The notes under the pieces: model-generated
Database searches by the model: none
Seen by the model: only the letters and a program-made list of their open reading frames with translations
What the model was told of the DNA's origin: nothing
Source of the DNA: an uncultured Candidatus Saccharibacteria bacterium
GTDB lineage: Bacteria; Patescibacteriota; Doudnabacteria; UBA920
DNA: 64,000 nt
Direction of reading: 5' to 3'
NCBI GenBank assembly: GCA_964512925.1
Contig: CAZEKH010000003.1
Coordinates: 80,772 to 144,771, forward strand
Part shown: piece by piece, positions 2,783-58,680 of the stretch
Layout of the letters: every line of letters begins with the position of its first letter
Position numbering within the stretch: the first letter of the stretch is position 1
Made by a program: the position numbers and the translations under genes

Positions 2783-3687
2783 ACAGATTTTACAGTTAAT
2801 AACTGCTCAATAACCGGCAAATATTTTTCCGCATATGCCCTGCCCTCCTCATAGTATATACGAAAAGTGTCCTGCGATAAATTGACTTTTGAAGTTTTTA
2901 AATCTTTCATAGTGATCGTCAAATCAGCCGGCCTGTTCGGCTTTTCAAATAAATTTTCGTTTTCCAAAGAAATTTGCAGGCTTTTTTCAATCACGGAAAA
3001 AATATCGTCTTCAAAGCCGTTATGTTTCTGTCCCAGCAAAGCCTTGACTTTTCCCGGCAAAGCTGCCAGTTTTTTTAAACTGTGGAAAAAAAACTTCGGA
3101 AGAACCCTGCCTGTCGCGAAATATTTATGAGCCTGAAGATTTATTTCCACCACAACATCCGGACCAAACCCGGACAATAAATCCGAAGGCAAATAAGTAA
3201 AAAGGCCCGCGTCAACCAAAATCTTATTTCCCCACTTAACCGGCTCAAACAGCCCAGGAAAAGCGCAAGACACAGTCGCGGCTTGGGCAATACTGCCCAT
3301 ACAAAGCGAAACTTTTTCACCAGAATTTATATCTATGGCCCCAAAAACCAGCTTAGTTTTAACATCCTCAAAAGTTTTACCTCCGGTTACCAGCTCCAAA
3401 TCCTCAGCAACCTTTTGTAAACTGTAAAGCCCGCTGCCGTTTCGGCTTTTTACCAAATATAGGTCTTTCATTGTGTTAAAATCCAACTGTAAAGCTTTGT
3501 TTTTTAGAATAGGTAATGTTCCGCATACATAAGCCGCCGAAACTAGCGATCCCCCGCTGCAAGCGGAAATATAATCTATGTCAACATTGTTTTCGGCTAA
3601 CACTTCCAAAAAACCTATATAAAAAGTGCTTCTGTTTCCAGCTCCGGAAAATGCCAAACCCAAAGTTGCTTTTCTTTTATTTATCAT
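2779..3687 (-). CDS. patatin-like phospholipase
   Basis: Gly-rich oxyanion region LAFSGAGNRS, GxSxG nucleophile motif ACSGGS, and a C-terminal DAG(L) Asp motif in VDAGLF. Confidence 0.7.
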   Translation of the reverse strand: MINKRKATLGLAFSGAGNRSTFYIGFLEVLAENNVDIDYISACSGGSLVSAAYVCGTLPILKNKALQLDFNTMKDLYLVKSRNGSGLYSLQKVAEDLELVTGGKTFEDVKTKLVFGAIDINSGEKVSLCMGSIAQAATVSCAFPGLFEPVKWGNKILVDAGLFTYLPSDLLSGFGPDVVVEINLQAHKYFATGRVLPKFFFHSLKKLAALPGKVKALLGQKHNGFEDDIFSVIEKSLQISLENENLFEKPNRPADLTITMKDLKTSKVNLSQDTFRIYYEEGRAYAEKYLPVIEQLLTVKSV

Positions 3688-9678: not shown

Positions 9679-10064
9679 GCTTTAAGCAAATCGTATAATC
9701 GCTTAACCCATAGCCTTGCTATGGGTTGGGAGGAAAGTCCGAACACTTGGTTGATAGTCACTTAAGAATTATCAACACTGGTAGCGGGTAACACCCGTCT
9801 GGAGTAACTCCGATGTAAAAGTCGGAGCCAAGCCACGAGATGCGAACAGAAACGGTTGCGCGCGAAAGCAAGCAACCGCCCTATACCTCAAGCTTTGCTA
9901 AATGGTATAGGGCGATCTCCAAAAGTAATTTTGGAGGTGAAACGGCTAAATTCTTACCTGAGTGCAAGGCCAAATTTGGTAGGCTGCTTGACCCTTCTGG
10001 CGACAGACAGGGCAGATAGATGATTATATAAAAACAGAATTCGGCTTATGAGTTTGCTTAAAGC
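9679..10064 (+). ncRNA. rnpB: RNase P RNA (bacterial type)
   Basis: Conserved P4 strands GGGAGGAAAGTCCGAAC (5') and ACAGAATTCGGCTTAT (3'), GGTGAAACGG and GGGTAACACCCG motifs. The P1 helix pairs 9679-9692 (gctttaagcaaatcg) with 10050-10064 (gagtttgcttaaagc). No ORF is present. Confidence 0.8.
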
Positions 10065-20342: not shown

Positions 20343-20374
20343 AACCCCCGCGCACAGGCGCGGGGTTTTCTTTT
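20343..20374 (+). terminator. rho-independent terminator of the plus-strand moron
   Basis: aacccccgcgc-acag-gcgcggggttttcttttaaa. Perfect 9-bp GC stem followed by a T-run. Confidence 0.65.
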
Positions 20375-20378
20375 AAAC

Positions 20379-21368
20379 TTAGTAAGAAGTTTGTGCATTT
20401 GTAACTAAGCAAGTAATTGCTTTTGAGTCACTGGAGGAATATACTGGTTTGAAACTTACATCTTGCATAATTACATCATTTAATTTAAATTCTCTCCCGA
20501 GTTGGGTGAAATAAACTTTAGCTAAGTCAATTCTAACTAGAGGAGTTGCTGAAGTTCCTATGGTGACATCCGAATTTGCAATATCTATACGAAGTGCTTT
20601 TGCAGTGTTTCCCAAAAATGTTGTTTTAAATGAAGCTTCGTCTTGCCAAAATGCTGTAACACTACCCTCAATTGAAATGTTTTTATTTAAGAAGTCGGCA
20701 GGGTCAACGCTTCCTAAAACAAAATCTTCTTCTATGTTGGCCTTGATAGAAAGTTTAAATGACTTAATTGTTACTGCAGAAGCCGCACCTAAACCTGCTA
20801 AGTTAGAAGCTAACTTAAATGTTACATGTTTGTGCGTGAAGCGGTTTTCGGTACTTGTTGCCGGGGTTAGAGTAGCCGTTGCACCTTTCTTAGCACGAAA
20901 ATCTATTTTGTAGGTTATATATTGACCTAACTCATAGCTGATTTCTAAAGAGTCAATCATTCCAAGACCATGTTTGTAATCTTGCCCACCAGCTGGATCA
21001 TCCAAAAATATAGACAAAGCTTGGTGTTGTGAAGTTTGGCCGACTGTAATTGTGTGGTCTTTTATAGTTCCGCTGCCATCAGCGTTTGCGGCTGTGCTTA
21101 AACTTCCTAAAACATTAAGTAAAATTAAAGCAAAATGTTTGTCAGAAATGGGAGCGGTTAAAGATCCTTTCATGTATTGCTTAGCAATATCCCTACTAAA
21201 TGAGTCTTCAATCACGCCGTAAGACTCTTGGTTAATAATATCTTCCTGTATTTCATCGATGTTTATATCTTTCCAAGGAATCCAAAAACTGGCTGCGGTT
21301 TCAGGTGTTCCGCGCACAGTTTCTTTTGCAATTCCGAATTGAGTTGTTCGTCCTATCGCTTTTGGCAT
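20379..21368 (-). CDS. major tail protein (putative)
   Basis: 329-aa protein in the position of the tail tube gene, downstream of the connector genes. No motif found. Confidence 0.4.
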   Translation of the reverse strand: MPKAIGRTTQFGIAKETVRGTPETAASFWIPWKDINIDEIQEDIINQESYGVIEDSFSRDIAKQYMKGSLTAPISDKHFALILLNVLGSLSTAANADGSGTIKDHTITVGQTSQHQALSIFLDDPAGGQDYKHGLGMIDSLEISYELGQYITYKIDFRAKKGATATLTPATSTENRFTHKHVTFKLASNLAGLGAASAVTIKSFKLSIKANIEEDFVLGSVDPADFLNKNISIEGSVTAFWQDEASFKTTFLGNTAKALRIDIANSDVTIGTSATPLVRIDLAKVYFTQLGREFKLNDVIMQDVSFKPVYSSSDSKAITCLVTNAQTSY

Positions 21369-40070: not shown

Positions 40071-40487
40071 TTAAACTGGTAACATTTCGGCTTCCCTTGC
40101 CACTTCCCAGGCGTATTTAATTATTTCGCCTTTGTTATTTTTTATATGGTTATATTTAACTTCCTTTTTTTCAGGTTTAAAAAATTTTTCCAAATCCTCC
40201 AGCTTTGCGGTTGGTTTTCTTTTTTTGAAACCCTTTAACATTAATTCTTTTGCGTTTTTAGTTGACCGGCTAAAAACATTTCCAGACAACATTTTTTGAT
40301 TAGTTTCATACGGCTGGTGATAGTCATACGATTTTTCGCAAATTTCCTTGATACTTGGAAAAGCAATATAATTTGACCCTAGCCATATTCCATTTTGTTT
40401 GCCTTCCGTACTTGCCAGCATTATTTTTTCGACTTGCTCGTCAGTTATGTCATAAACCTTATTTTCATAGGTAATTATTTGTTTCAT
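40071..40487 (-). CDS. hypothetical protein
   Basis: 138-aa ORF. Confidence 0.3.
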   Translation of the reverse strand: MKQIITYENKVYDITDEQVEKIMLASTEGKQNGIWLGSNYIAFPSIKEICEKSYDYHQPYETNQKMLSGNVFSRSTKNAKELMLKGFKKRKPTAKLEDLEKFFKPEKKEVKYNHIKNNKGEIIKYAWEVAREAEMLPV

Positions 40488-41188
40488 ATTCTTACGGCGT
40501 TAGTTTGTTTTTTTTCCTGAAAGCCTCCGGCCCTTGAAAGCCAAGTTTCAAACCTCCTGCTGACCTCAAAAGTTTTTTCCGTTTCCCAGCGTTGCCTACT
40601 TCCGGATTTATTGGGTTCGGTCCAATAGCGAGTAAATTTTCTTATTTCTTCCGCTATGGCCTGTATATTAACATCGTACTTTTGCGAAAACATAACCCCA
40701 ACTTTCCTCCGCGTGTCTTCATCCTCAAAAAACTTTTTAGCAATTTCCTTGGGCGTGGGCGGCGAAAAGCCGCCACTCTCTAGACTAACCTTATCTAACC
40801 TAACCTTACCTATACTGCGTGACGGTTCCGTCGACGAGCCGTCGACGGCATCGGTGTATGATCCGTTTTCTTTGATTGTTAAGGTATTTTTTTCTTGAAA
40901 ATACTTTGTCGGCTCGTATGTGTCTTTCCGGATGTAGTTATGTATCAGCCAATGCTTAATTACACAGATTCCGGACTCAAAAGGCAATATAAATCTTTTA
41001 GCACAAAGTATTTTAAAATCATCGTCAGTAGATCCCAAAAGCCTCATTATTTTTTTGGGTGAAGATACAAAACCGTCATCGTCGGCTTCCATATTCAGGT
41101 GAAAATATAACAGCTGGGTACTGGCCGGCATATCGAGAAATGCGTCGGTGCTAATTACCAGCCTTGAGAACATTCTCTTTTGTGCCAT
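40484..41188 (-). CDS. putative phage replication/replisome-organizer protein
   Basis: Assigned by position next to recT, and by a winged-helix-like N-terminus. Weak. Confidence 0.3.
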   Translation of the reverse strand: MAQKRMFSRLVISTDAFLDMPASTQLLYFHLNMEADDDGFVSSPKKIMRLLGSTDDDFKILCAKRFILPFESGICVIKHWLIHNYIRKDTYEPTKYFQEKNTLTIKENGSYTDAVDGSSTEPSRSIGKVRLDKVSLESGGFSPPTPKEIAKKFFEDEDTRRKVGVMFSQKYDVNIQAIAEEIRKFTRYWTEPNKSGSRQRWETEKTFEVSRRFETWLSRAGGFQEKKQTNAVRI

Positions 41189-49848: not shown

Positions 49849-49892
49849 TTTTTAGGACTGAGATTATAGGGCTAAGGTTATAGGGCTAAGGG

Positions 49893-53647: not shown

Positions 53648-54679
53648 TTAACCGCTGACTTTGGGAGATTTTTTAAAATAATTTATTGCGGTTAAAAGAA
53701 ATAGTCTGATATAGATGGCTAAAAACACCGCCCAATTAAAAATAAAAAGATATTTTTTAGCGTAGTATTTCTGATAAAAAATCCACATCGCCTCGTGAAA
53801 CCACTTTAAAGCACGAAACGGGACTTTACGGGAGGACGAGCCTTTAAAGTGGGTGATAAATGCCGTAGGGTGATACCAGACTTTAAACCCGGCTTCTTTG
53901 CATCGCCAGCACCAGTCAATATCTTCCCCATACATAAAAAACTTTTCATCAAGCAAACCAATTTTTTCTACAACTGATTTTCGGATAAGCAAAAACGCGC
54001 CCATACAACTATCTATCTCCATACTCTGGTTTTCATCCGTGTCCAGCATATTATAACTTGTTCCCTCTCCCCGTCTAAACGGGGGGAGGGATTGAGGGAG
54101 GGGGTTGAATAACCCATCAACCCTCAAAAACCTCGCCAAAGCATTCCAAGGATTTGGAAACCTTCTTCTGCAAGCTAAGTCCAATTTTCCATTTTCTAAT
54201 ATTACTTTACAAGTTACAATACCCACATCTTCCCGCTTCTCAATAAACTCCAAAGTCGTTTTTAAAGTATCTTTTTCTACTTTTGTATCCGGATTGAGCA
54301 AAAGTATATATTTTCCTCTAGCCCGCCTAATCCCTAAATTATTTCCGTGCGCAAACCCAGTATTAGTATTGCGAAGCAATTCAAATTTTCCCTCCCCAGG
54401 CGTGGGGAGGGTGTCCCGATGGACATCGGGACGGGAGAGGTCGAACGAAGGATTATTTAACAAACCTTCAAGCCATTGCCCAGTTCCGTCAGTTGAACCG
54501 TTATCTATAACAATCACCTCAGCCAAGTACCCATTATCTCCCCTCTTTACTAAAGTGGGGACTTGGGAGTTCTTTCCACTGGTAAACAAAACCCCCTCGC
54601 TCCCCCCCAAACTCAAAAACAACCGCTCTAAATCGGTTTTGGAGTTGTAGGAAAGGATTATTATTGAGAGTTTTACCAT
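53648..54679 (-). CDS. glycosyltransferase family 2 carrying three in-frame GC-rich palindromic insertions
   Basis: LSIIILSYNS...VIVIDNGSTDGT...FAHGNNLGIRRARGKYILLLNPD GT2 core. It is interrupted by segments encoded by GC-rich palindromes at about 54061-54112, 54389-54446 and 54533-54610. Confidence 0.75.
   Translation of the reverse strand: MVKLSIIILSYNSKTDLERLFLSLGGSEGVLFTSGKNSQVPTLVKRGDNGYLAEVIVIDNGSTDGTGQWLEGLLNNPSFDLSRPDVHRDTLPTPGEGKFELLRNTNTGFAHGNNLGIRRARGKYILLLNPDTKVEKDTLKTTLEFIEKREDVGIVTCKVILENGKLDLACRRRFPNPWNALARFLRVDGLFNPLPQSLPPFRRGEGTSYNMLDTDENQSMEIDSCMGAFLLIRKSVVEKIGLLDEKFFMYGEDIDWCWRCKEAGFKVWYHPTAFITHFKGSSSRKVPFRALKWFHEAMWIFYQKYYAKKYLFIFNWAVFLAIYIRLFLLTAINYFKKSPKVSG
54061..54112. 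repeat. GC-rich palindromic element (ccctctccccg-tctaaa-cggggggaggg...) in-frame inside the GT2 gene
   Basis: Seen directly: CCCTCCCC/GGGGAGGG inverted repeat within AT-rich coding sequence. Confidence 0.6.
54389..54446. repeat. GC-rich palindromic element (ccctcccca-ggcg-tggggaggg + gtcccgatg-ga-catcgggac) in-frame inside the GT2 gene
   Basis: Two adjacent perfect hairpins. Translated as DLSRPDVHRDTLPTPGEGKFE. Confidence 0.6.
54533..54610. repeat. GC-rich imperfect palindromic element in-frame inside the GT2 gene
   Basis: cccctctttact-aaagtgggga ... accccctcgctccccccc. Confidence 0.45.
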
Positions 54680-54957
54680 TGATTTTTTAAAAATAATATG
54701 ATATACAAACTAAGTCCGAAATCGAGAAATTGGAGGAGAGTATGGCAGAGGCTAAACAAGCTTGGCGGAGTTCCAATTCTGCTTCGCTTAGACGAGTCAG
54801 CCCAGCAGGGACAAGGCTGGTGGAGCAAATTTTGTGATATGGGTATTGAAAGTGGCGTCATGATGCGGGTAGTAGAGCTGCAATACTTTAAACTCCCAGC
54901 AGCCACTGCCGCCGAATAGGCCGCCGCCGCAAACGCAGTTTCTTCTGCCGCGCCTTG

Positions 54958-56019
54958 TTAGGCCTCCGGCAGTTTTTTTATTATGCTTCTCTTTTTCCAC
55001 ATCATCGGCAAAGTTTTAAAAAAATCCGGAAGAACTTTTAAGGTACTTATTTCAAACAGCAATATGTAGATTAACATAAAAAACTCGCGGAAGAAAAATT
55101 GGGGGTAAAAGTACTTGGAGTTTTTTATGTACATGTAAATATGGTTGGTCCAATTGAGTTGTTTGATTTTTGGATTTAATTGTTTATGATGCTTAATAAA
55201 AGCCAAAACATTTAAGTAACCTTTTTTTGAAGACCCGGCAGTACGGCCGTGGAAAGCTATGGCCTTTGGCGCAAACTTGCATTTCCATCCTTTGTTCACC
55301 ATCCGCCAAGCTAAATCCACATCTTCCCAGTAGCTATGGAAATCGGAGTCAAAATATTCTGTATTAGCTTTTAGCTTATAGCTTATAGCCTTTAGGGCAG
55401 AAGCCCTGTACATTGCCCCGGCTCCGGACACTGCTTGAACATCGGTTAGTAAATCATATTGCCCGAGGTCAGTCTCCCACTGCCCCCTATCCCTCGCCCT
55501 TCCCGACTTACTAATTGTCACCCCAGTTGTATCTAATGTTTTACAATCTTCAATCTTCAATTTTAAATCTTCAATTTTAAACAGTTTTCCCGTCGCGGCT
55601 CCGACTTTTTCATCTTCAAAAACTTCAAGCATCTTTTCCATATAATCCGCCTGCATTATTAAATCCGGATTTACAAGTTGAAAAAATTCTGGGCTACATT
55701 CAACCTCTCCCCGACCCTCCCCACCCGCCTGCAGCGTTATGCGCAGCATTTCGGGCAGGAGTCTTGGGGAGGGAGACAAATTTGAATACTTCTCAAACAC
55801 CAAATTATGCCCTTTGGCAAAACCTATGTTATAGCCCGGATCAATGATTTCCACCTGCGGGAATTTTTCCATCAAAAGTTCCTTGCCCCCGTCATCATTT
55901 CCAGCCACTACCACCACGGCTTTAAAATCTTTAAAGGTTTGGTTAAAAAGCGCGGTAAAAACAGGCTCAATCCATTTTTTACTATTGTAAATAACTTGTA
56001 CGACTATAACTTTAGGCAT
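54958..56019 (-). CDS. glycosyltransferase family 2 carrying two in-frame GC-rich palindromic insertions
   Basis: KVIVVQVIYNSKKWIEPVFTALFNQTFKDFKAVVVVAGNDDGG GT2 N-terminus. Insert-encoded segments SPSPRLLPEMLRITLQAGGEGRGEVEC (55703-55775) and SGRARDRGQWETDLG (55465-55525). Confidence 0.75.
   Translation of the reverse strand: MPKVIVVQVIYNSKKWIEPVFTALFNQTFKDFKAVVVVAGNDDGGKELLMEKFPQVEIIDPGYNIGFAKGHNLVFEKYSNLSPSPRLLPEMLRITLQAGGEGRGEVECSPEFFQLVNPDLIMQADYMEKMLEVFEDEKVGAATGKLFKIEDLKLKIEDCKTLDTTGVTISKSGRARDRGQWETDLGQYDLLTDVQAVSGAGAMYRASALKAISYKLKANTEYFDSDFHSYWEDVDLAWRMVNKGWKCKFAPKAIAFHGRTAGSSKKGYLNVLAFIKHHKQLNPKIKQLNWTNHIYMYIKNSKYFYPQFFFREFFMLIYILLFEISTLKVLPDFFKTLPMMWKKRSIIKKLPEA
55703..55775. repeat. 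GC-rich palindromic element (ctccccgaccctcccc ... ggggagggagac) in-frame inside the second GT2 gene
   Basis: Seen directly. The same CCCTCCCC/GGGGAGGG core as the elements in the neighbouring gene. Confidence 0.55.
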
Positions 56020-57574
56020 TGGATTTAAGTTTTTTATAGTTAGTAACCACCACTCCGGAAAGCAGGAGGTTGATAAAAAAATACATCAGCACTTTGTCGT
56101 TAAACAAAGTAATGTCAAAAAACCCGGCTGCCAGAACCCATAGCGCGGCGAGAAAAAACTGCGCTGCCAAATAAATATAAAAATCTTTTTCTTTTAGATG
56201 CGCTTTTAAAAACTCAAACAATGTTTTTAAAACTTTGTAAAAAAACAGTAGGAATAAGCCCAAACCCACAAACCCTGTTTCCACAAACACCTGCAAAAAC
56301 AAACTATGCGCCGAGACAAACCTGGCTGGCAAATTATATTTCTCATTTACCCTACCTGCCAAATCTTCATAGGAAATTTTGCTTTCAGGATCTGCTGCCG
56401 CAACTAAAAAATTCTGCAGTCCAATGCCCCAGGGGTGTTTGGTGCCATAAATCAAACTGCTTTTCCAAATCTCAATTCGTCCCGCGTTAGAAGACTCTTT
56501 TAGATCATAAATGCTTTTCGCCCTGTCTAAAAAATTCTCTTCAAATTTTCCAATTCTGAGCGTTGACAATCCTTTGTTGATTAGTGGGGAAATAATCAGC
56601 AGTAAAAACAAAATCACAAACGGCCATTTAAATTTTTTTACCAAAGCCGGCATAAAATCCTTAAGCCAGGCTATGGCCACAGCCAAAACCGGAAGCATTG
56701 CTCCCGCCCAAACCGCCCGAGTGCCGGAAAGCATCACCCCCATACCGGCAAACCGAATGCCTGACCACAACCATTTTCGTATATGCACAAAAACTTCACG
56801 AGTCAATGCAGTCCCCAGACACAAACCGAACATACAAACATAAGCGAAAGACTGGGAATCCGGCATTATAGAAAACATTCTGAGATTTCTTCCGCCCACA
56901 TACGAAAACCAGGAATTGGAATATAAAGCTACGCTGGAAAAATAACTGCCATAGTACAGCTGGCTTATGTTGGAAGCCCAATACACCCAAAAAGTATCAA
57001 GGTTGGTTAAAAAAGTTCCAATCAGCTGGGCAAAACCCAAAGTTACTATAATTGTCAAAGACCAGATGGTAAATTTCACGGTTTGGGAAACCTGCTCTTT
57101 TGTTTTTATCACATTGCTTCCCACCAGATAAAACAAGTAAATATTCAAAAAAAATATCAACTGTTTTATTCCCGGAATTTTATATTCCGCAAAAGCCAGA
57201 ACAGAAAACACGGCTGCCAAAAAAAACCACAGCAAGTATTTGTCCCAAGGCAAAAATTCCACTGATTTTAACTGGAGTTTTTTTTCTTTTATTAACCAAA
57301 CCATAAAGAGCAAAACAAACAACGGCCGCCACATCGACAAGCTGTCAAAGGGCAGACCCGGCAAAACTAAAAAAAACGGAATAGATAATAATAAAAGTAA
57401 AAAACCTTTATAAGCGCCAAATAAAAAGATAAAAACAGAGATCAAAGTAAAATTCACCCAAACCAAATTCGGTGAGACACCAAGCATCCCTGTAAGGAGG
57501 ATAGAAATGTATTGCCAGATCACGAGCAAAATTATCAGGCTAAGTGTTTTATTTGATGTAAAATATTGAATCAT
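56012..57574 (-). CDS. O-antigen ligase/polymerase-like polytopic membrane protein (Wzy_C-type)
   Basis: At least 10 TM segments and a central periplasmic loop with ...SGTRAVWAGAML, typical of the O-antigen ligase family. Confidence 0.55.
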   Translation of the reverse strand: MIQYFTSNKTLSLIILLVIWQYISILLTGMLGVSPNLVWVNFTLISVFIFLFGAYKGFLLLLLSIPFFLVLPGLPFDSLSMWRPLFVLLFMVWLIKEKKLQLKSVEFLPWDKYLLWFFLAAVFSVLAFAEYKIPGIKQLIFFLNIYLFYLVGSNVIKTKEQVSQTVKFTIWSLTIIVTLGFAQLIGTFLTNLDTFWVYWASNISQLYYGSYFSSVALYSNSWFSYVGGRNLRMFSIMPDSQSFAYVCMFGLCLGTALTREVFVHIRKWLWSGIRFAGMGVMLSGTRAVWAGAMLPVLAVAIAWLKDFMPALVKKFKWPFVILFLLLIISPLINKGLSTLRIGKFEENFLDRAKSIYDLKESSNAGRIEIWKSSLIYGTKHPWGIGLQNFLVAAADPESKISYEDLAGRVNEKYNLPARFVSAHSLFLQVFVETGFVGLGLFLLFFYKVLKTLFEFLKAHLKEKDFYIYLAAQFFLAALWVLAAGFFDITLFNDKVLMYFFINLLLSGVVVTNYKKLKSNA

Positions 57575-58680
57575 TGGTTTTTAGTTAAAACCTTTAATGT
57601 CTCTTCAGCGCATTTTTTCCAGGAAAAATCTTTAAGTCTCATAGGTCCTTTGTCTGAAAGTTTTTGGGCAAAACTTTTATCAAGCAAAACCGCCTTAATG
57701 GCATTTTTTATTTCCTGGATATTTTTCGGGTCAAAATACACAGCCGCCTCCCCGGCCACTTCTGGCATACTGGAAATATTGGACGTTGCAACTGGCACAC
57801 CAACAGAGAACGCTTCCAAAATCTGCATACCAAACCCTTCATAAAAAGATGGCAAGACCAACAAATCCGCATTTTTCATAATTTCCATCCGATCGGAATC
57901 GCTGATATGGTTTAAATATATAACAAAATCTTTATTTTGTTCAATTTGTTCCAATATATTGCCGAATTTCCATCCTGGTTTCCCTACAACCACGAGCTTA
58001 TGCTTTATCTCCGGATTTTCGTTTTTTAAAAGTTTAAATGCGTCAATCAAACCTTCCAGATTTTTTCTGGGCTGTAAAGTTGAAAGAAACAAAACGTATT
58101 TAATATTATGTATTTGGTATTTTACAGTTACATCTGCCGTTAGCTCCTTTGAATTTAAATGATTATTAGCGATTTCTTCAAACCCGTGGTAAATAACATT
58201 AATATTTTCATTTTTTATGTTATAAAATTTTAAAATATCTTTTTTAGTGCTTTGTGAGACCGCGATGATTTTGGCCGCATTTTTTACCGCGAATCTCGTT
58301 GACCACTCCAAAAAATTCCTATTAAACCAGGTAAAAGTTTTTGGAAAAAATTTCCAAGCTAAATCGTGGATTGTGACAACTGACATTTTCGGGTGAAGAA
58401 GAGGCAGAGCCGAGGCGGGTATAAACAAAACATCCGGTTTATGCCAAAACATCTCCCAAGACAAACGGATTTGCGTCCAAAAAACCGGAAACGGCATTAT
58501 CTTCAAAGTAAAATTTTCCGGCAAACTTGAAAACCAGGCTTCAGGCCTGGTTCTTAAATACAAAACATACTTATTCTGCCTGTCAATTTCCGCCAAATGC
58601 AAGATTAATTGCTTTGCATAATGCTCAACGCCGGTTTTAACAGGGTTATTTGCTCGTTCAGCTTCTATGCCAATGATCAT
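57571..58680 (-). CDS. glycosyltransferase family 4
   Basis: EGFGMQILEAFSVGVPVATSNISSMPEVAGEAAVYFDP. Confidence 0.8.
   Translation of the reverse strand: MIIGIEAERANNPVKTGVEHYAKQLILHLAEIDRQNKYVLYLRTRPEAWFSSLPENFTLKIMPFPVFWTQIRLSWEMFWHKPDVLFIPASALPLLHPKMSVVTIHDLAWKFFPKTFTWFNRNFLEWSTRFAVKNAAKIIAVSQSTKKDILKFYNIKNENINVIYHGFEEIANNHLNSKELTADVTVKYQIHNIKYVLFLSTLQPRKNLEGLIDAFKLLKNENPEIKHKLVVVGKPGWKFGNILEQIEQNKDFVIYLNHISDSDRMEIMKNADLLVLPSFYEGFGMQILEAFSVGVPVATSNISSMPEVAGEAAVYFDPKNIQEIKNAIKAVLLDKSFAQKLSDKGPMRLKDFSWKKCAEETLKVLTKNQ

What the first reader, a model, noticed from the sequence alone, without database searches (positions are those of the whole stretch)
54061..55775. GC-rich palindromic elements inserted in-frame into two adjacent GT2 glycosyltransferase genes (RPE-like behaviour)
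At least five 50-80-bp segments sit inside the coding sequences of the GT2 genes 53648..54679 and 54958..56019. They are built around CCCTCCCC...GGGGAGGG inverted repeats, and one has an extra gtcccgatg-ga-catcgggac hairpin. They are far more GC-rich than the surrounding AT-rich genes. All preserve the reading frame and add peptide segments such as DLSRPDVHRDTLPTPGEGKFE and SPSPRLLPEMLRITLQAGGEGRGEVEC. Both contain a P/G-G-E-G core, so the elements are read in the same frame. This resembles Rickettsia palindromic elements (RPEs), which are MITE-like repeats that insert in-frame into ORFs. The insertions are concentrated in surface-glycan genes.
Basis: seen in the sequence. Interest (0 to 1): 0.7.

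Follow-up and report, generated by a model that had tools for sequence, protein, structure and literature searches.

The report
Hairpin repeats inserted inside glycosyltransferase genes
Two neighbouring sugar-transferase genes of a tiny Patescibacteria-type bacterium carry short GC-rich hairpin repeats that were inserted into their coding sequence and are read through as extra floppy protein loops. The same repeat family is spread across many bacteria and regularly brackets a small nuclease gene of unknown function (DUF559).

Summary
Three of the five segments are real palindromic, GC-rich, in-frame insertions: E2 54390-54441, E3 54063-54106 and E5 55696-55785. A fourth, E1 (54536-54595), is an insertion with only weak palindromy. 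The fifth (55459-55507) is the conserved core of the GT2-B family, not an insertion. Orthologues from Doudnabacteria-like genomes lack these inserts or carry different palindromes at the same loop positions. In the AlphaFold model of GT2-A, the only low-confidence segments are the three inserts.

The elements share a consensus: an AACCTCNCC box, a spacer, then a CCCTCYCC-loop-GGRGAGGG hairpin. This consensus recurs in other genes (GT4, Wzy, PGI, DNA polymerase III delta', trigger factor) and in intergenic DNA of many phyla. The pattern matched at least 120 metagenome contigs and 37 viral contigs. Hairpin arm positions covary, with 167 of 168 copies Watson-Crick.

All 11 DUF559 (Vsr-like endonuclease) genes examined have copies at their ends, and 10 have an inverted copy upstream of the start. 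That layout resembles REP repeats around RAYT transposase genes.

The RPE-like reading is right in kind, but the elements are not RPEs. Mobilisation by DUF559 is inferred, not shown.

The parts
53648..54679 (-). GT2-A, a family-2 glycosyltransferase gene (343 aa) that hosts three insertions
   Evidence: Pfam PF00535, PF13641 and PF13632. Orthologues have a base length of about 283-289 aa. The AlphaFold model has pLDDT 82, with low confidence only at residues 38-48, 86-97 and 192-206.
54063..54106 (-). E3, a sense-oriented element. On the coding strand it reads AACCCCCTCCCTC-AAT-CCCTCCCCCC-GTTTAGAC-GGGGAGAGGG. It lies inside a 51-nt (17-codon) insertion (about 54065-54115) that encodes GLFNPLPQSLPPFRRGE.
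   Evidence: None of the closer orthologues aligned has an insertion here; a distant clade has a 6-8-residue segment at this column. Fold z = -3.9 as RNA and -4.25 as DNA. nhmmer E = 8e-4. Covariance-model hit at 54063-54101(-).
54390..54441 (-). E2, a sense-oriented composite element. It reads ACCTCTCCC-[GTCCCGATG-TC-CATCGGGAC]-A-CCCTCCCC-ACGCCT-GGGGAGGG and encodes DLSRPDVHRDTLPTPGEG.
   Evidence: Two perfect 9-bp hairpins. Fold z = -4.3 and -4.7. Absent from orthologues. The same box/hairpin-2/hairpin-1 architecture, with the identical second hairpin, occurs in the Wzy gene of L050 at 3540-3600. Covariance-model hit.
54536..54595 (-). E1, an insertion at the site-1 hot spot (GVLFTSGKNSQVPTLVKRGD). 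It contains an imperfect palindrome, TCCCCACTTTA-G-TAAAGAGGGGA, at 54539-54561. It may be a decayed relative of the family.
   Evidence: Absent from the short orthologues, while other orthologues carry different inserts here, including canonical elements in L019 and L010. Folding is weak, z = -1.1 to -1.45. Neither nhmmer nor the covariance model finds it.
54958..56019 (-). GT2-B, a family-2 glycosyltransferase gene (353 aa) that hosts one insertion
   Evidence: Pfam. Orthologues have a base length of about 313-325 aa.
55696..55785 (-). E5, a 30-codon insertion (SNLSPSPRLLPEMLRITLQAGGEGRGEVEC). On the + strand it reads AACCTCTCCCC-GA-CCCTCCCC (55702-55722), then a 43-nt loop with a nested hairpin, then GGGGAGGG (55766-55773). 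By its box it is antisense to the gene.
   Evidence: Fold z = -2.7 and -3.7. It is the best covariance-model hit in the window, 55701-55736(+). Its first 21 nt are identical to the PGI-gene copies in L027 and L033.
55459..55507 (-). Not an element. This G-rich stretch encodes the conserved GT2-B core motif SKSGRARDRGQWETDLGQYD.
   Evidence: The columns are invariant or nearly invariant in 22 orthologues. Fold z = -1.2.

Best explanation
The GC-rich segments E2, E3 and E5, and probably E1, are solo copies of a short, polar, hairpin-forming repeat family. The family has a 5' box AACCTCNCC, a short spacer, and then a C-rich/G-rich hairpin CCCTCYCC-loop-GGRGAGGG. Some copies add a second hairpin in the spacer or loop, or a 3' complement of the box. 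These behave as REP- or MITE-like selfish DNA.

Copies have been inserted into coding DNA. They persist only where they add a whole number of stop-free codons in a loop that the fold tolerates. There they are transcribed and translated as disordered P/S/L/G/E-rich loops, as RPEs are in Rickettsia.

Shown here:
- The segments are insertions relative to orthologues.
- They form hairpins.
- The consensus recurs in unrelated genes, in intergenic DNA and across phyla.
- The hairpin arms covary.
- The inserts coincide with the only low-confidence loops of GT2-A.
- All 11 DUF559 (Vsr-like PD-(D/E)xK) endonuclease genes examined have copies of the family at their ends, and this cassette is present or absent at a syntenic site.

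Inferred:
- The DUF559 nuclease, or some other enzyme acting in trans, mobilises the hairpins. I put about 0.35 on DUF559 specifically.
- Frame and stop-codon filtering by selection explains why the retained copies are in frame.
- The inserted loops are neutral or nearly so for enzyme function.
For: **Insertions**
- Protein and codon alignments show empty versus filled sites.
- The window's own PGI gene is an empty site for a copy that L027, L033 and L001 carry.

**Family**
- A consensus is shared by 13 seed copies.
- nhmmer and regex searches find copies in GT2-A, GT2-B, GT4, Wzy and PGI genes and in intergenic DNA of Doudnabacteria-like loci.
- The composite form of E2 recurs in the Wzy gene of L050.
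- In-frame copies sit in DNA polymerase III delta', the type I restriction R subunit, trigger factor and topoisomerase.

**Structure**
- Fold z-scores are given.
- The one arm position the search pattern left free is T-A in 153 copies, C-G in 14, T-G in 1 and C-A in 0.
- Stem pairs that the pattern did not constrain covary.
- A covariance model built from 37 unrelated copies ranks E5, E2 and E3 as the top independent hits in the window.

**Protein**
- In the AlphaFold model of GT2-A, residues below pLDDT 50 fall only at 38-48, 86-97 and 192-206.

**DUF559 link**
- All 11 independently obtained DUF559 genes have adjacent copies. Ten have an inverted copy upstream of the start, directly adjacent in most.
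- About a third of 120 DUF559 homologues end in NLT or in hairpin-encoded tails.
- The cassette is present, absent, or reduced to hairpins only at the alaS/PGI spacer.
Against: - The window has no extragenic copy and no DUF559 gene, so activity in this genome is not shown.
- Each window copy is a weak match on its own to the independent covariance model (E = 0.2-1.4).
- No target-site duplication or conserved target is evident.
- Only 10 of 170 metagenome and viral copies lie within 150 bp of a DUF559 gene.
- The related loci were fetched around the GT2 genes, so the enrichment in glycan genes is biased by sampling.
- Unrelated palindromes occupy the same hot spots. Some process other than transposition of one family therefore also makes or keeps palindromes there.
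- The GT2-B model is too poor (pLDDT 58) to place E5.
Confidence: 0.75

Rival explanations
1. The palindromes arise in place. Replication template switching or fold-back synthesis at fragile loop-coding sites would create and then perfect inverted repeats locally, with no mobile element involved.
For: - Unrelated palindromes occupy exactly the same sites in orthologues. Examples are L024 TCCGCCAAAGGCGG-TT-CCGCCTTTGGCGGA and L032 TCCGCCGGAGGCGG-TT-CCGCCTCCGGCGGA, which differ by changes on both arms, and the TRGILV.HKDSPCV type.
- Nested hairpins sit inside loops (E5, and L001).
- The arms are near-perfect.
Against: - The same 35-56-nt polar sequence, including the non-palindromic AACCTCNCC box and even the second hairpin of E2, occurs in non-homologous genes and genomes.
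- It also brackets DUF559 genes in several phyla.
- Local fold-back synthesis would copy adjacent native sequence, which is not what is seen.
Confidence: 0.1
2. The hairpins are functional parts of the genes. They could be mRNA structures that tune translation or mRNA stability, since the G-rich arm is Shine-Dalgarno-like and the C-rich arm anti-Shine-Dalgarno-like. Or they could be selected flexible loops, or homopolymer tracts for phase variation of surface-glycan synthesis.
For: - About 13 in-gene copies in the Doudnabacteria-like loci are sense, against 4 antisense.
- The hairpin is maintained by covariation.
- C7 and G6 runs occur at about 54600-54607 and 54081-54086.
- Upstream of DUF559 genes, the box complement GGGAGGT sits 4-9 nt before the start codon.
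Against: - Presence is patchy, and sister orthologues lack the inserts.
- Both orientations occur.
- The peptides are predicted to be disordered.
- Most copies elsewhere are intergenic.
- No orthologue is frameshifted at the homopolymer runs.
Confidence: 0.1
3. The segments are not insertions at all. They would be ancestral variable loops that happen to be GC-rich, or assembly artefacts of a metagenome-assembled genome.
For: The insert sites are variable in length across the family.
Against: - The shortest orthologues lack the segments entirely.
- Equivalent elements are seen in many independently assembled genomes.
- The palindromy is far beyond what shuffles give.
- There is a DNA-level consensus across different genes.
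Confidence: 0.03

Closest known systems
Rickettsia palindromic elements (RPEs)
   Same: Both are palindromic selfish repeats inserted into protein-coding genes in frame. Both are translated as extra surface segments compatible with the fold, and both also occur between genes (PMC10969869).
   Different: RPEs are about 150 bp, fall into ten Rickettsia families, and encode a conserved peptide. The elements here are 35-90 nt with a C-rich/G-rich hairpin and an AACCTC box. They occur in Patescibacteria and many other phyla and are linked to DUF559 genes. Sequence similarity to RPEs was not tested.
REP/REPIN elements with RAYT transposases (REPtrons)
   Same: Both are 20-40-nt imperfect palindromes with an unpaired polar tag at one end. 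Solo copies greatly outnumber the associated gene, and that gene is flanked by copies in inverted orientation. Intragenic REPs are known (PMC2817692, PMC3337134, PMC3733652).
   Different: The tag is AACCTCNCC, not GTAG or CGTC. The bracketed gene is a Vsr-like PD-(D/E)xK nuclease (DUF559), not an HUH tyrosine transposase. The window shows no high extragenic copy number.
Bacterial MITEs found inside genes (ERIC, BOX, Correia/NEMIS, Anabaena MITEs)
   Same: Both are small non-autonomous repeats that can create in-frame fusions with host ORFs (PMC10969869).
   Different: The elements here are shorter. No target-site duplication is seen, and no related insertion sequence with a transposase was found.
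Very small nested dispersed repeats of cyanobacteria, and GC clusters of yeast mitochondria (recalled from my own knowledge, not checked here)
   Same: Both are tiny palindromic repeats that insert into one another and into coding sequence of AT-rich genomes. The nested hairpins in E2, E5 and L001 match this behaviour.
   Different: The sequences and taxa are different, and no link to DUF559 is known for them.
Vsr-like homing endonucleases (I-Bth0305I family)
   Same: DUF559 shares the Vsr-like PD-(D/E)xK fold with a proven mobility nuclease (PMC3424549 and PMC3239194).
   Different: Those enzymes sit in introns or inteins and home to a single target. DUF559 genes are free-standing and bracketed by hairpins.

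Membership tests
Rickettsia palindromic elements (RPE) | Palindromic repeat retained in frame inside ORFs, at positions compatible with the protein fold | tested here: met
Rickettsia palindromic elements (RPE) | Length of about 100-150 bp and membership of one of the Rickettsia RPE sequence families | tested here: not met
   The elements are 35-90 nt, and the host is Doudnabacteria-like Patescibacteria. RPE size comes from PMC10969869. A direct sequence comparison with RPE consensus sequences was not possible.
REP / REPIN | Short (20-40 nt) imperfect palindrome with a conserved unpaired tag at one end | tested here: met
   A box of 9-10 nt is followed by an 8-9-bp stem.
REP / REPIN | The tag fits GTAG or CGTC | tested here: not met
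   The tag is AACCTC[A/T]CC in 162 of 168 copies. The definition comes from PMC3733652.
REP / REPIN | High extragenic copy number (more than 100 per genome) | not testable with these tools
   Only 64 kb of the source genome and stretches of about 20 kb or less from other genomes were available. The window has 0 extragenic copies.
REP / REPIN | A RAYT (HUH tyrosine transposase) gene flanked by inverted copies | tested here: not met
   The flanked gene is DUF559, PF04480. No RAYT-specific search was run.
MITE | Terminal inverted repeats | tested here: met
   Two-tier copies have AACC(C)CTCCC...GGGGAGAGGTT outer arms in L004, L005, L059 and L120. Most copies lack the 3' arm: only 9 of 168 show an outer arm.
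MITE | Target-site duplication | tested here: inconclusive
   No consistent duplication appears at the junctions compared. The sample is small.
MITE | A parent insertion sequence that encodes a transposase and shares the ends | tested here: not met
   The only ORF that shares the ends is a 120-aa DUF559 nuclease.
Glycosyltransferase family 2 (host genes) | GT-A fold domain with Pfam GT2 signatures above the curated threshold | tested here: met
   PF00535, PF13641 and PF13632. The GT2-A model is confident outside the inserts.
DUF559-bracketing hairpin family (defined here) | Box AACCTCNCC, a spacer, then a CCCTCYCC/GGRGAGGG hairpin | tested here: met
   E3, E2 (with a nested hairpin) and E5 (box on the + strand) are the top independent hits in the window with the independent model R1, although E = 0.2-1.4 each. 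E1 and the 55459-55507 segment are not hit.

The most novel reading that the evidence does not exclude
DUF559 proteins would be the nucleases of a second, previously unrecognised REPtron-like system: a Vsr-like PD-(D/E)xK enzyme bracketed by inverted copies of a polar hairpin repeat that it recognises and spreads. This system would be present across many bacterial phyla and some phage-like contigs. In small, gene-dense Patescibacteria genomes its hairpins would survive mainly as in-frame passengers inside tolerant genes, so that they remodel protein loops.
Probability: 0.3. Interest if true: 0.8.

Novelty: new variant of a known kind. Interest (0 to 1): 0.62.

Why it matters
In-frame palindromic repeats are mostly discussed as a Rickettsia peculiarity. 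This window shows the same behaviour in a Patescibacteria genome. The repeat involved is not local: it recurs in contigs spanning GC 0.18-0.73 and sits inside housekeeping genes elsewhere.

The repeat also brackets DUF559 genes. DUF559 is a very large family annotated only as 'endonuclease domain-containing' or 'very-short-patch-repair endonuclease'. The bracketing gives a concrete, testable idea of what these proteins act on. It may also explain a published result that DUF559 genes score as targets of programmed inversion (PMC9881135).

There are practical consequences. Such inserts lengthen proteins, create spurious low-complexity tails on annotated DUF559 proteins, and can mislead alignment and gene calling in metagenome-assembled genomes.

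Tried and rejected
- **Rfam.** No curated family covers the elements. Only sub-threshold generic hairpin (miRNA) hits appeared.
- **GC-richness as a marker.** Rejected, because the window has 38 comparable GC islands.
- **DUF559 in the window.** None was found with tblastn or with a 120-sequence profile run on all stop-to-stop frames.
- **Spacer between the two GT2 genes (54680-54957).** I tested it as a decayed cassette. It has no similarity to DUF559 or to the spacers of other loci.
- **Source contig.** An exact look-up of the GT2-A protein found no record, so the rest of the source genome could not be reached.
- **Alignment for the model.** The MAFFT alignment of 90 copies put the 3' arms out of register and was not used for the model. 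A gap-free subset was used instead.
- **GT2-B structure.** The model was too poor (pLDDT 58) to place E5.
- **Literature.** Searches on Patescibacteria plus palindromic in-frame insertions, on DUF559, PF04480 and Vsr-like endonucleases found no description of this repeat or of its link to DUF559.
- **Single ancestral insertion at GT2-B site 1.** A neighbour-joining tree shows patchy presence, but the tree is not supported well enough to separate repeated gain from loss or recombination.
Full report
**Setting**

The window has 38.6% GC. Every ORF of 150 aa or more that looks like a gene lies on the minus strand. The finding covers two adjacent family-2 glycosyltransferase genes: GT2-A at 53648-54679(-) and GT2-B at 54958-56019(-). 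They lie next to a Wzy-type gene and a GT4 gene. Further along are a polysaccharide flippase-type gene, alaS and a PGI-like gene. The best-named homologues are from Candidatus Doudnabacteria and other Patescibacteria.

**Check of the observation**

- All five exact CCCTCCCC/GGGGAGGG octamers of the 64-kb window lie in these two genes, against 1.41 expected.
- Perfect 9-bp inverted repeats lie at 54390-54411, 54413-54432 and 55715/55765.
- Three segments fold much better than dinucleotide shuffles, as RNA and as DNA. E2 gives z = -4.3/-4.7, E3 gives -3.9/-4.25 and E5 gives -2.7/-3.7.
- The 54533-54612 segment (E1) gives z = -1.1/-1.45 and the 55459-55507 segment gives -1.2/-1.3, so neither stands out.
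- GC-richness alone is not special, because the window has 38 comparable GC islands.

**Are they insertions?**

GT2-A orthologues have a base length of about 283-289 aa. The window protein (343 aa) has three extra segments at residues about 29-48, 78-94 and 189-205. The short orthologues lack all three. The third is a 51-nt insertion not seen in any of the closer orthologues aligned; a distant clade has a 6-8-residue segment at that column.

GT2-B orthologues have a base length of about 313-325 aa. The window protein has one 30-codon insertion after FEKY.

It is native sequence.

The AlphaFold model of GT2-A is confident (pLDDT 82). Its only segments below pLDDT 50 are 38-48, 86-97 and 192-206, which are exactly the three inserts. 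The first two lie in helix-to-strand connections. The GT2-B model is poor overall and is not informative.

**A repeat family, not random loops**

In 59 orthologous Doudnabacteria-like loci, hairpins with the same arms and spacing recur. Thirteen copies align to a consensus: cAACC[T/C]C[T/A]CCC, 2-5 nt of spacer, CCCTC[C/T]CC, a 4-9-nt loop, then GG[G/A]GAGGG. Some copies add a 3' complement of the box, GGGGAGAGGTT.

Copies lie in several places:
- At the same GT2-B site as in the window (L003, L004, L005, L016, L025, L051, L059).
- At other GT2-B and GT2-A sites (L055, L019 twice, L027, L010).
- In GT4 genes (L012, L005, L016).
- In a Wzy gene (L050, twice).
- In the PGI-like gene (L027, L033, L001).

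The window's own PGI gene is an empty site for that last copy.

E2 is a composite: box, a second hairpin GTCCCGATG..CATCGGGAC, then the main hairpin. The same composite with the same second hairpin sits in a different gene (Wzy) of a different genome, read in a different frame. That is hard to explain except by copying of a unit.

E5 carries on the + strand the 21-nt string AACCTCTCCCCGACCCTCCCC. This is identical to the PGI copies of L027 and L033. E5 also has a 43-nt nested hairpin in its loop.

A covariance model built only from 37 unrelated metagenome copies ranks E5, E2 and E3 as the best independent hits in the whole window. Each hit is weak (E = 0.2-1.4), because the model is short and the copies are interrupted. 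E1 is not detected and remains only a possible decayed relative.

**Distribution beyond this lineage**

The pattern AACCTCNCC-N3-5-CCTCYCC-N4-9-GGRGAGG matches 37 IMG/VR contigs. Contig GC ranges from 0.18 to 0.73.

Among 168 distinct copies, the one stem position that the pattern left free is T-A in 153, C-G in 14, T-G in 1 and C-A in 0. Stem pairs outside the pattern also covary.

Most of these copies are intergenic or at gene ends. Twenty-two of 170 lie deep inside long reading frames. Pfam confirms hosts that include DNA polymerase III delta', a type I restriction R subunit, trigger factor, a type IX secretion substrate and a topoisomerase.

In-frame carriage is therefore not limited to glycan genes or to Patescibacteria. 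The concentration in the glycan cluster is real within this window, but the sampling of related loci around the GT2 genes biases that picture.

**The DUF559 link**

In the Doudnabacteria-like loci, every intergenic copy found lies at the alaS/PGI spacer. There the copies flank DUF559 genes (PF04480, E = 2.9e-33) in L018, L005 and L004, precede a truncated one in L008, or stand alone as two hairpins in L020.

I fetched eight further DUF559 genes by protein identity. Four of them I chose because their termini showed no hairpin-encoded tail. They include genes from a Planctomycetes and a Chloroflexi assembly.

- All 11 independent DUF559 genes have adjacent copies.
- Ten have an inverted copy upstream of the start. 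In most it lies directly before the start, and in seven the box complement GGGAGGT lies 4-9 nt upstream, in the position of a ribosome-binding site.
- Nine have a copy at or just after the stop codon. The stop is often the TAA of AACCTCACC-TAA, which explains the C-terminal '...NLT' of many annotated proteins.
- Roughly a third of 120 homologues show such termini or longer hairpin-encoded tails.

The cassette is a presence/absence unit. The alaS/PGI spacer is 44 bp in the window and 2-55 bp in eight other loci. In the remaining loci it holds one of the following:
- A DUF559 cassette (L004, L005, L018), or hairpins followed by what reads as the start of a DUF559 gene (L008).
- Only two hairpins (L020).
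- Other small cassettes: 23S_rRNA_IVP genes, a truncated GIY-YIG gene, or unassigned ORFs.

In L004 and L005 the DUF559-flanking copies share box or spacer variants (AACCCCTCC, TTAAT) with the in-gene copy of the same genome. This is suggestive, but n = 2.

The layout, a small nuclease gene between inverted copies of a polar hairpin repeat with many solo copies elsewhere, is the one described for RAYT transposases and REP/REPIN repeats (PMC2817692, PMC3337134, PMC3733652). Here both the tag and the enzyme class differ. A published screen found DUF559 proteins enriched 14-fold among predicted programmed-inversion targets (PMC9881135). Flanking inverted hairpins would produce that signal. I found no paper that describes the repeat or this association.

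**Mechanism and its limits**

The best-supported reading is that the window's segments are solo copies of this selfish hairpin family, retained because they add stop-free whole codons in tolerant loops.

The consensus has open frames in two of three phases in either orientation. This follows from the sequence itself: the only stop is the TAA, or TTA on the other strand, of the spacer.

Not shown:
- Which enzyme moves the elements.
- Whether they are still active in this genome. The 64-kb window has no DUF559 gene and no extragenic copy.
- Why the glycan genes collect them.
- Whether the GT2-B site-1 inserts stem from one event or several. The neighbour-joining tree shows patchy presence with empty sister lineages. 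Sense copies without a 3' box (L003, L025), two-tier copies (L004, L005, L059) and the window's copy differ in form. However, the window shares its 3' junction GGGGAGAGGTTGA with the two-tier group.

Unrelated palindromes at the same hot spots, with changes on both arms (L024 and L032), show that a local process that makes or maintains palindromes also operates. I keep this as a contributing rival.

**Verdict**

The RPE-like interpretation is right in kind and wrong as to family. In-frame palindromic repeats are a known kind of thing, so the novelty is moderate. It lies in three points: the host lineage, the pan-bacterial polar hairpin family, and its consistent bracketing of DUF559 genes. The last point yields a testable function for a large family of uncharacterised nucleases.

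Noticed in passing
window 9683-10064 (+): A bacterial class A RNase P RNA gene (Rfam RF00010, 100.3 bits against a gathering score of 100) lies on the + strand, while all protein genes of the window are on the - strand.
   Followed up: no
window 54680-54957: The 278-bp spacer between the two GT2 genes has GC of about 0.48-0.57. In orthologous loci this spacer is 0-30 bp in about half the cases, and 330-520 bp (GC 0.43-0.51) or up to 1.3 kb in the others. The window's version has no DNA similarity to them and no DUF559 signal. It holds an unassigned 73-aa ORF at 54698-54919(+).
   Followed up: partly
window 49849-49892 (alaS/PGI spacer); L001-L058 equivalents: This spacer is a hot spot for small cassettes. 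It is 44 bp in the window, with the direct repeat CCCTTAGCCCTATAACCTTAGCCCTATAATC. In other genomes the same spot holds DUF559 cassettes (L004, L005, L018; L008 has hairpins followed by an apparent DUF559 start), 23S_rRNA_IVP four-helix-bundle genes (L001 confirmed by Pfam; L006, L009 and L011 by sequence resemblance), a truncated GIY-YIG gene (L003), unassigned ORFs of about 400 bp, or only two hairpins (L020).
   Followed up: partly
L024 and L032, GT2-B site 1; several orthologues, GT2-B site after core column 124: Other palindrome families occupy the same insertion hot spots. One is TCCGCC(AAA/GGA)GGCGG-TT-CCGCC(TTT/TCC)GGCGGA, with matching changes on both arms. Another encodes TRGILV.HKDSPCV.
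   Followed up: partly
window 40828-40848, 58532-58552, 20346-20365: There are further GC-rich perfect palindromes. CCGTCGACG-AGC-CGTCGACGG lies inside ORF 40484-41188. AACCAGGC-TTCAG-GCCTGGTT lies inside the GT4 gene 57571-58680. CCCCGCGC-ACAG-GCGCGGGG lies just downstream of ORF 20379-21368 and looks like a terminator. Whether the first two are insertions was not tested.
   Followed up: no
L124:4623-4659, L126:3717-3750, L189:1176-1210, L229:230-268, L234:2669-2703: The same element sits in frame inside DNA polymerase III delta', a type I restriction R subunit, trigger factor (between the N- and C-terminal domains), a topoisomerase, and a type IX secretion substrate, all in unrelated metagenome contigs.
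   Followed up: partly
P0241-P0360 (DUF559 homologues): Many annotated DUF559 proteins carry N- or C-terminal tails such as ...NLT, TSPxPSLxxRG or PLLxKEG. These are translations of the flanking hairpins, so gene calls run into the repeat. The flanking inverted hairpins may also explain why DUF559 scores as a programmed-inversion target in PMC9881135.
   Followed up: partly
window 54600-54607, 54081-54086, 54100-54104: Homopolymer runs (C7, G6, G5) created by the elements lie inside GT2-A. Runs of this kind cause phase variation in the surface-glycan genes of some pathogens. No evidence of length variation was sought.
   Followed up: no
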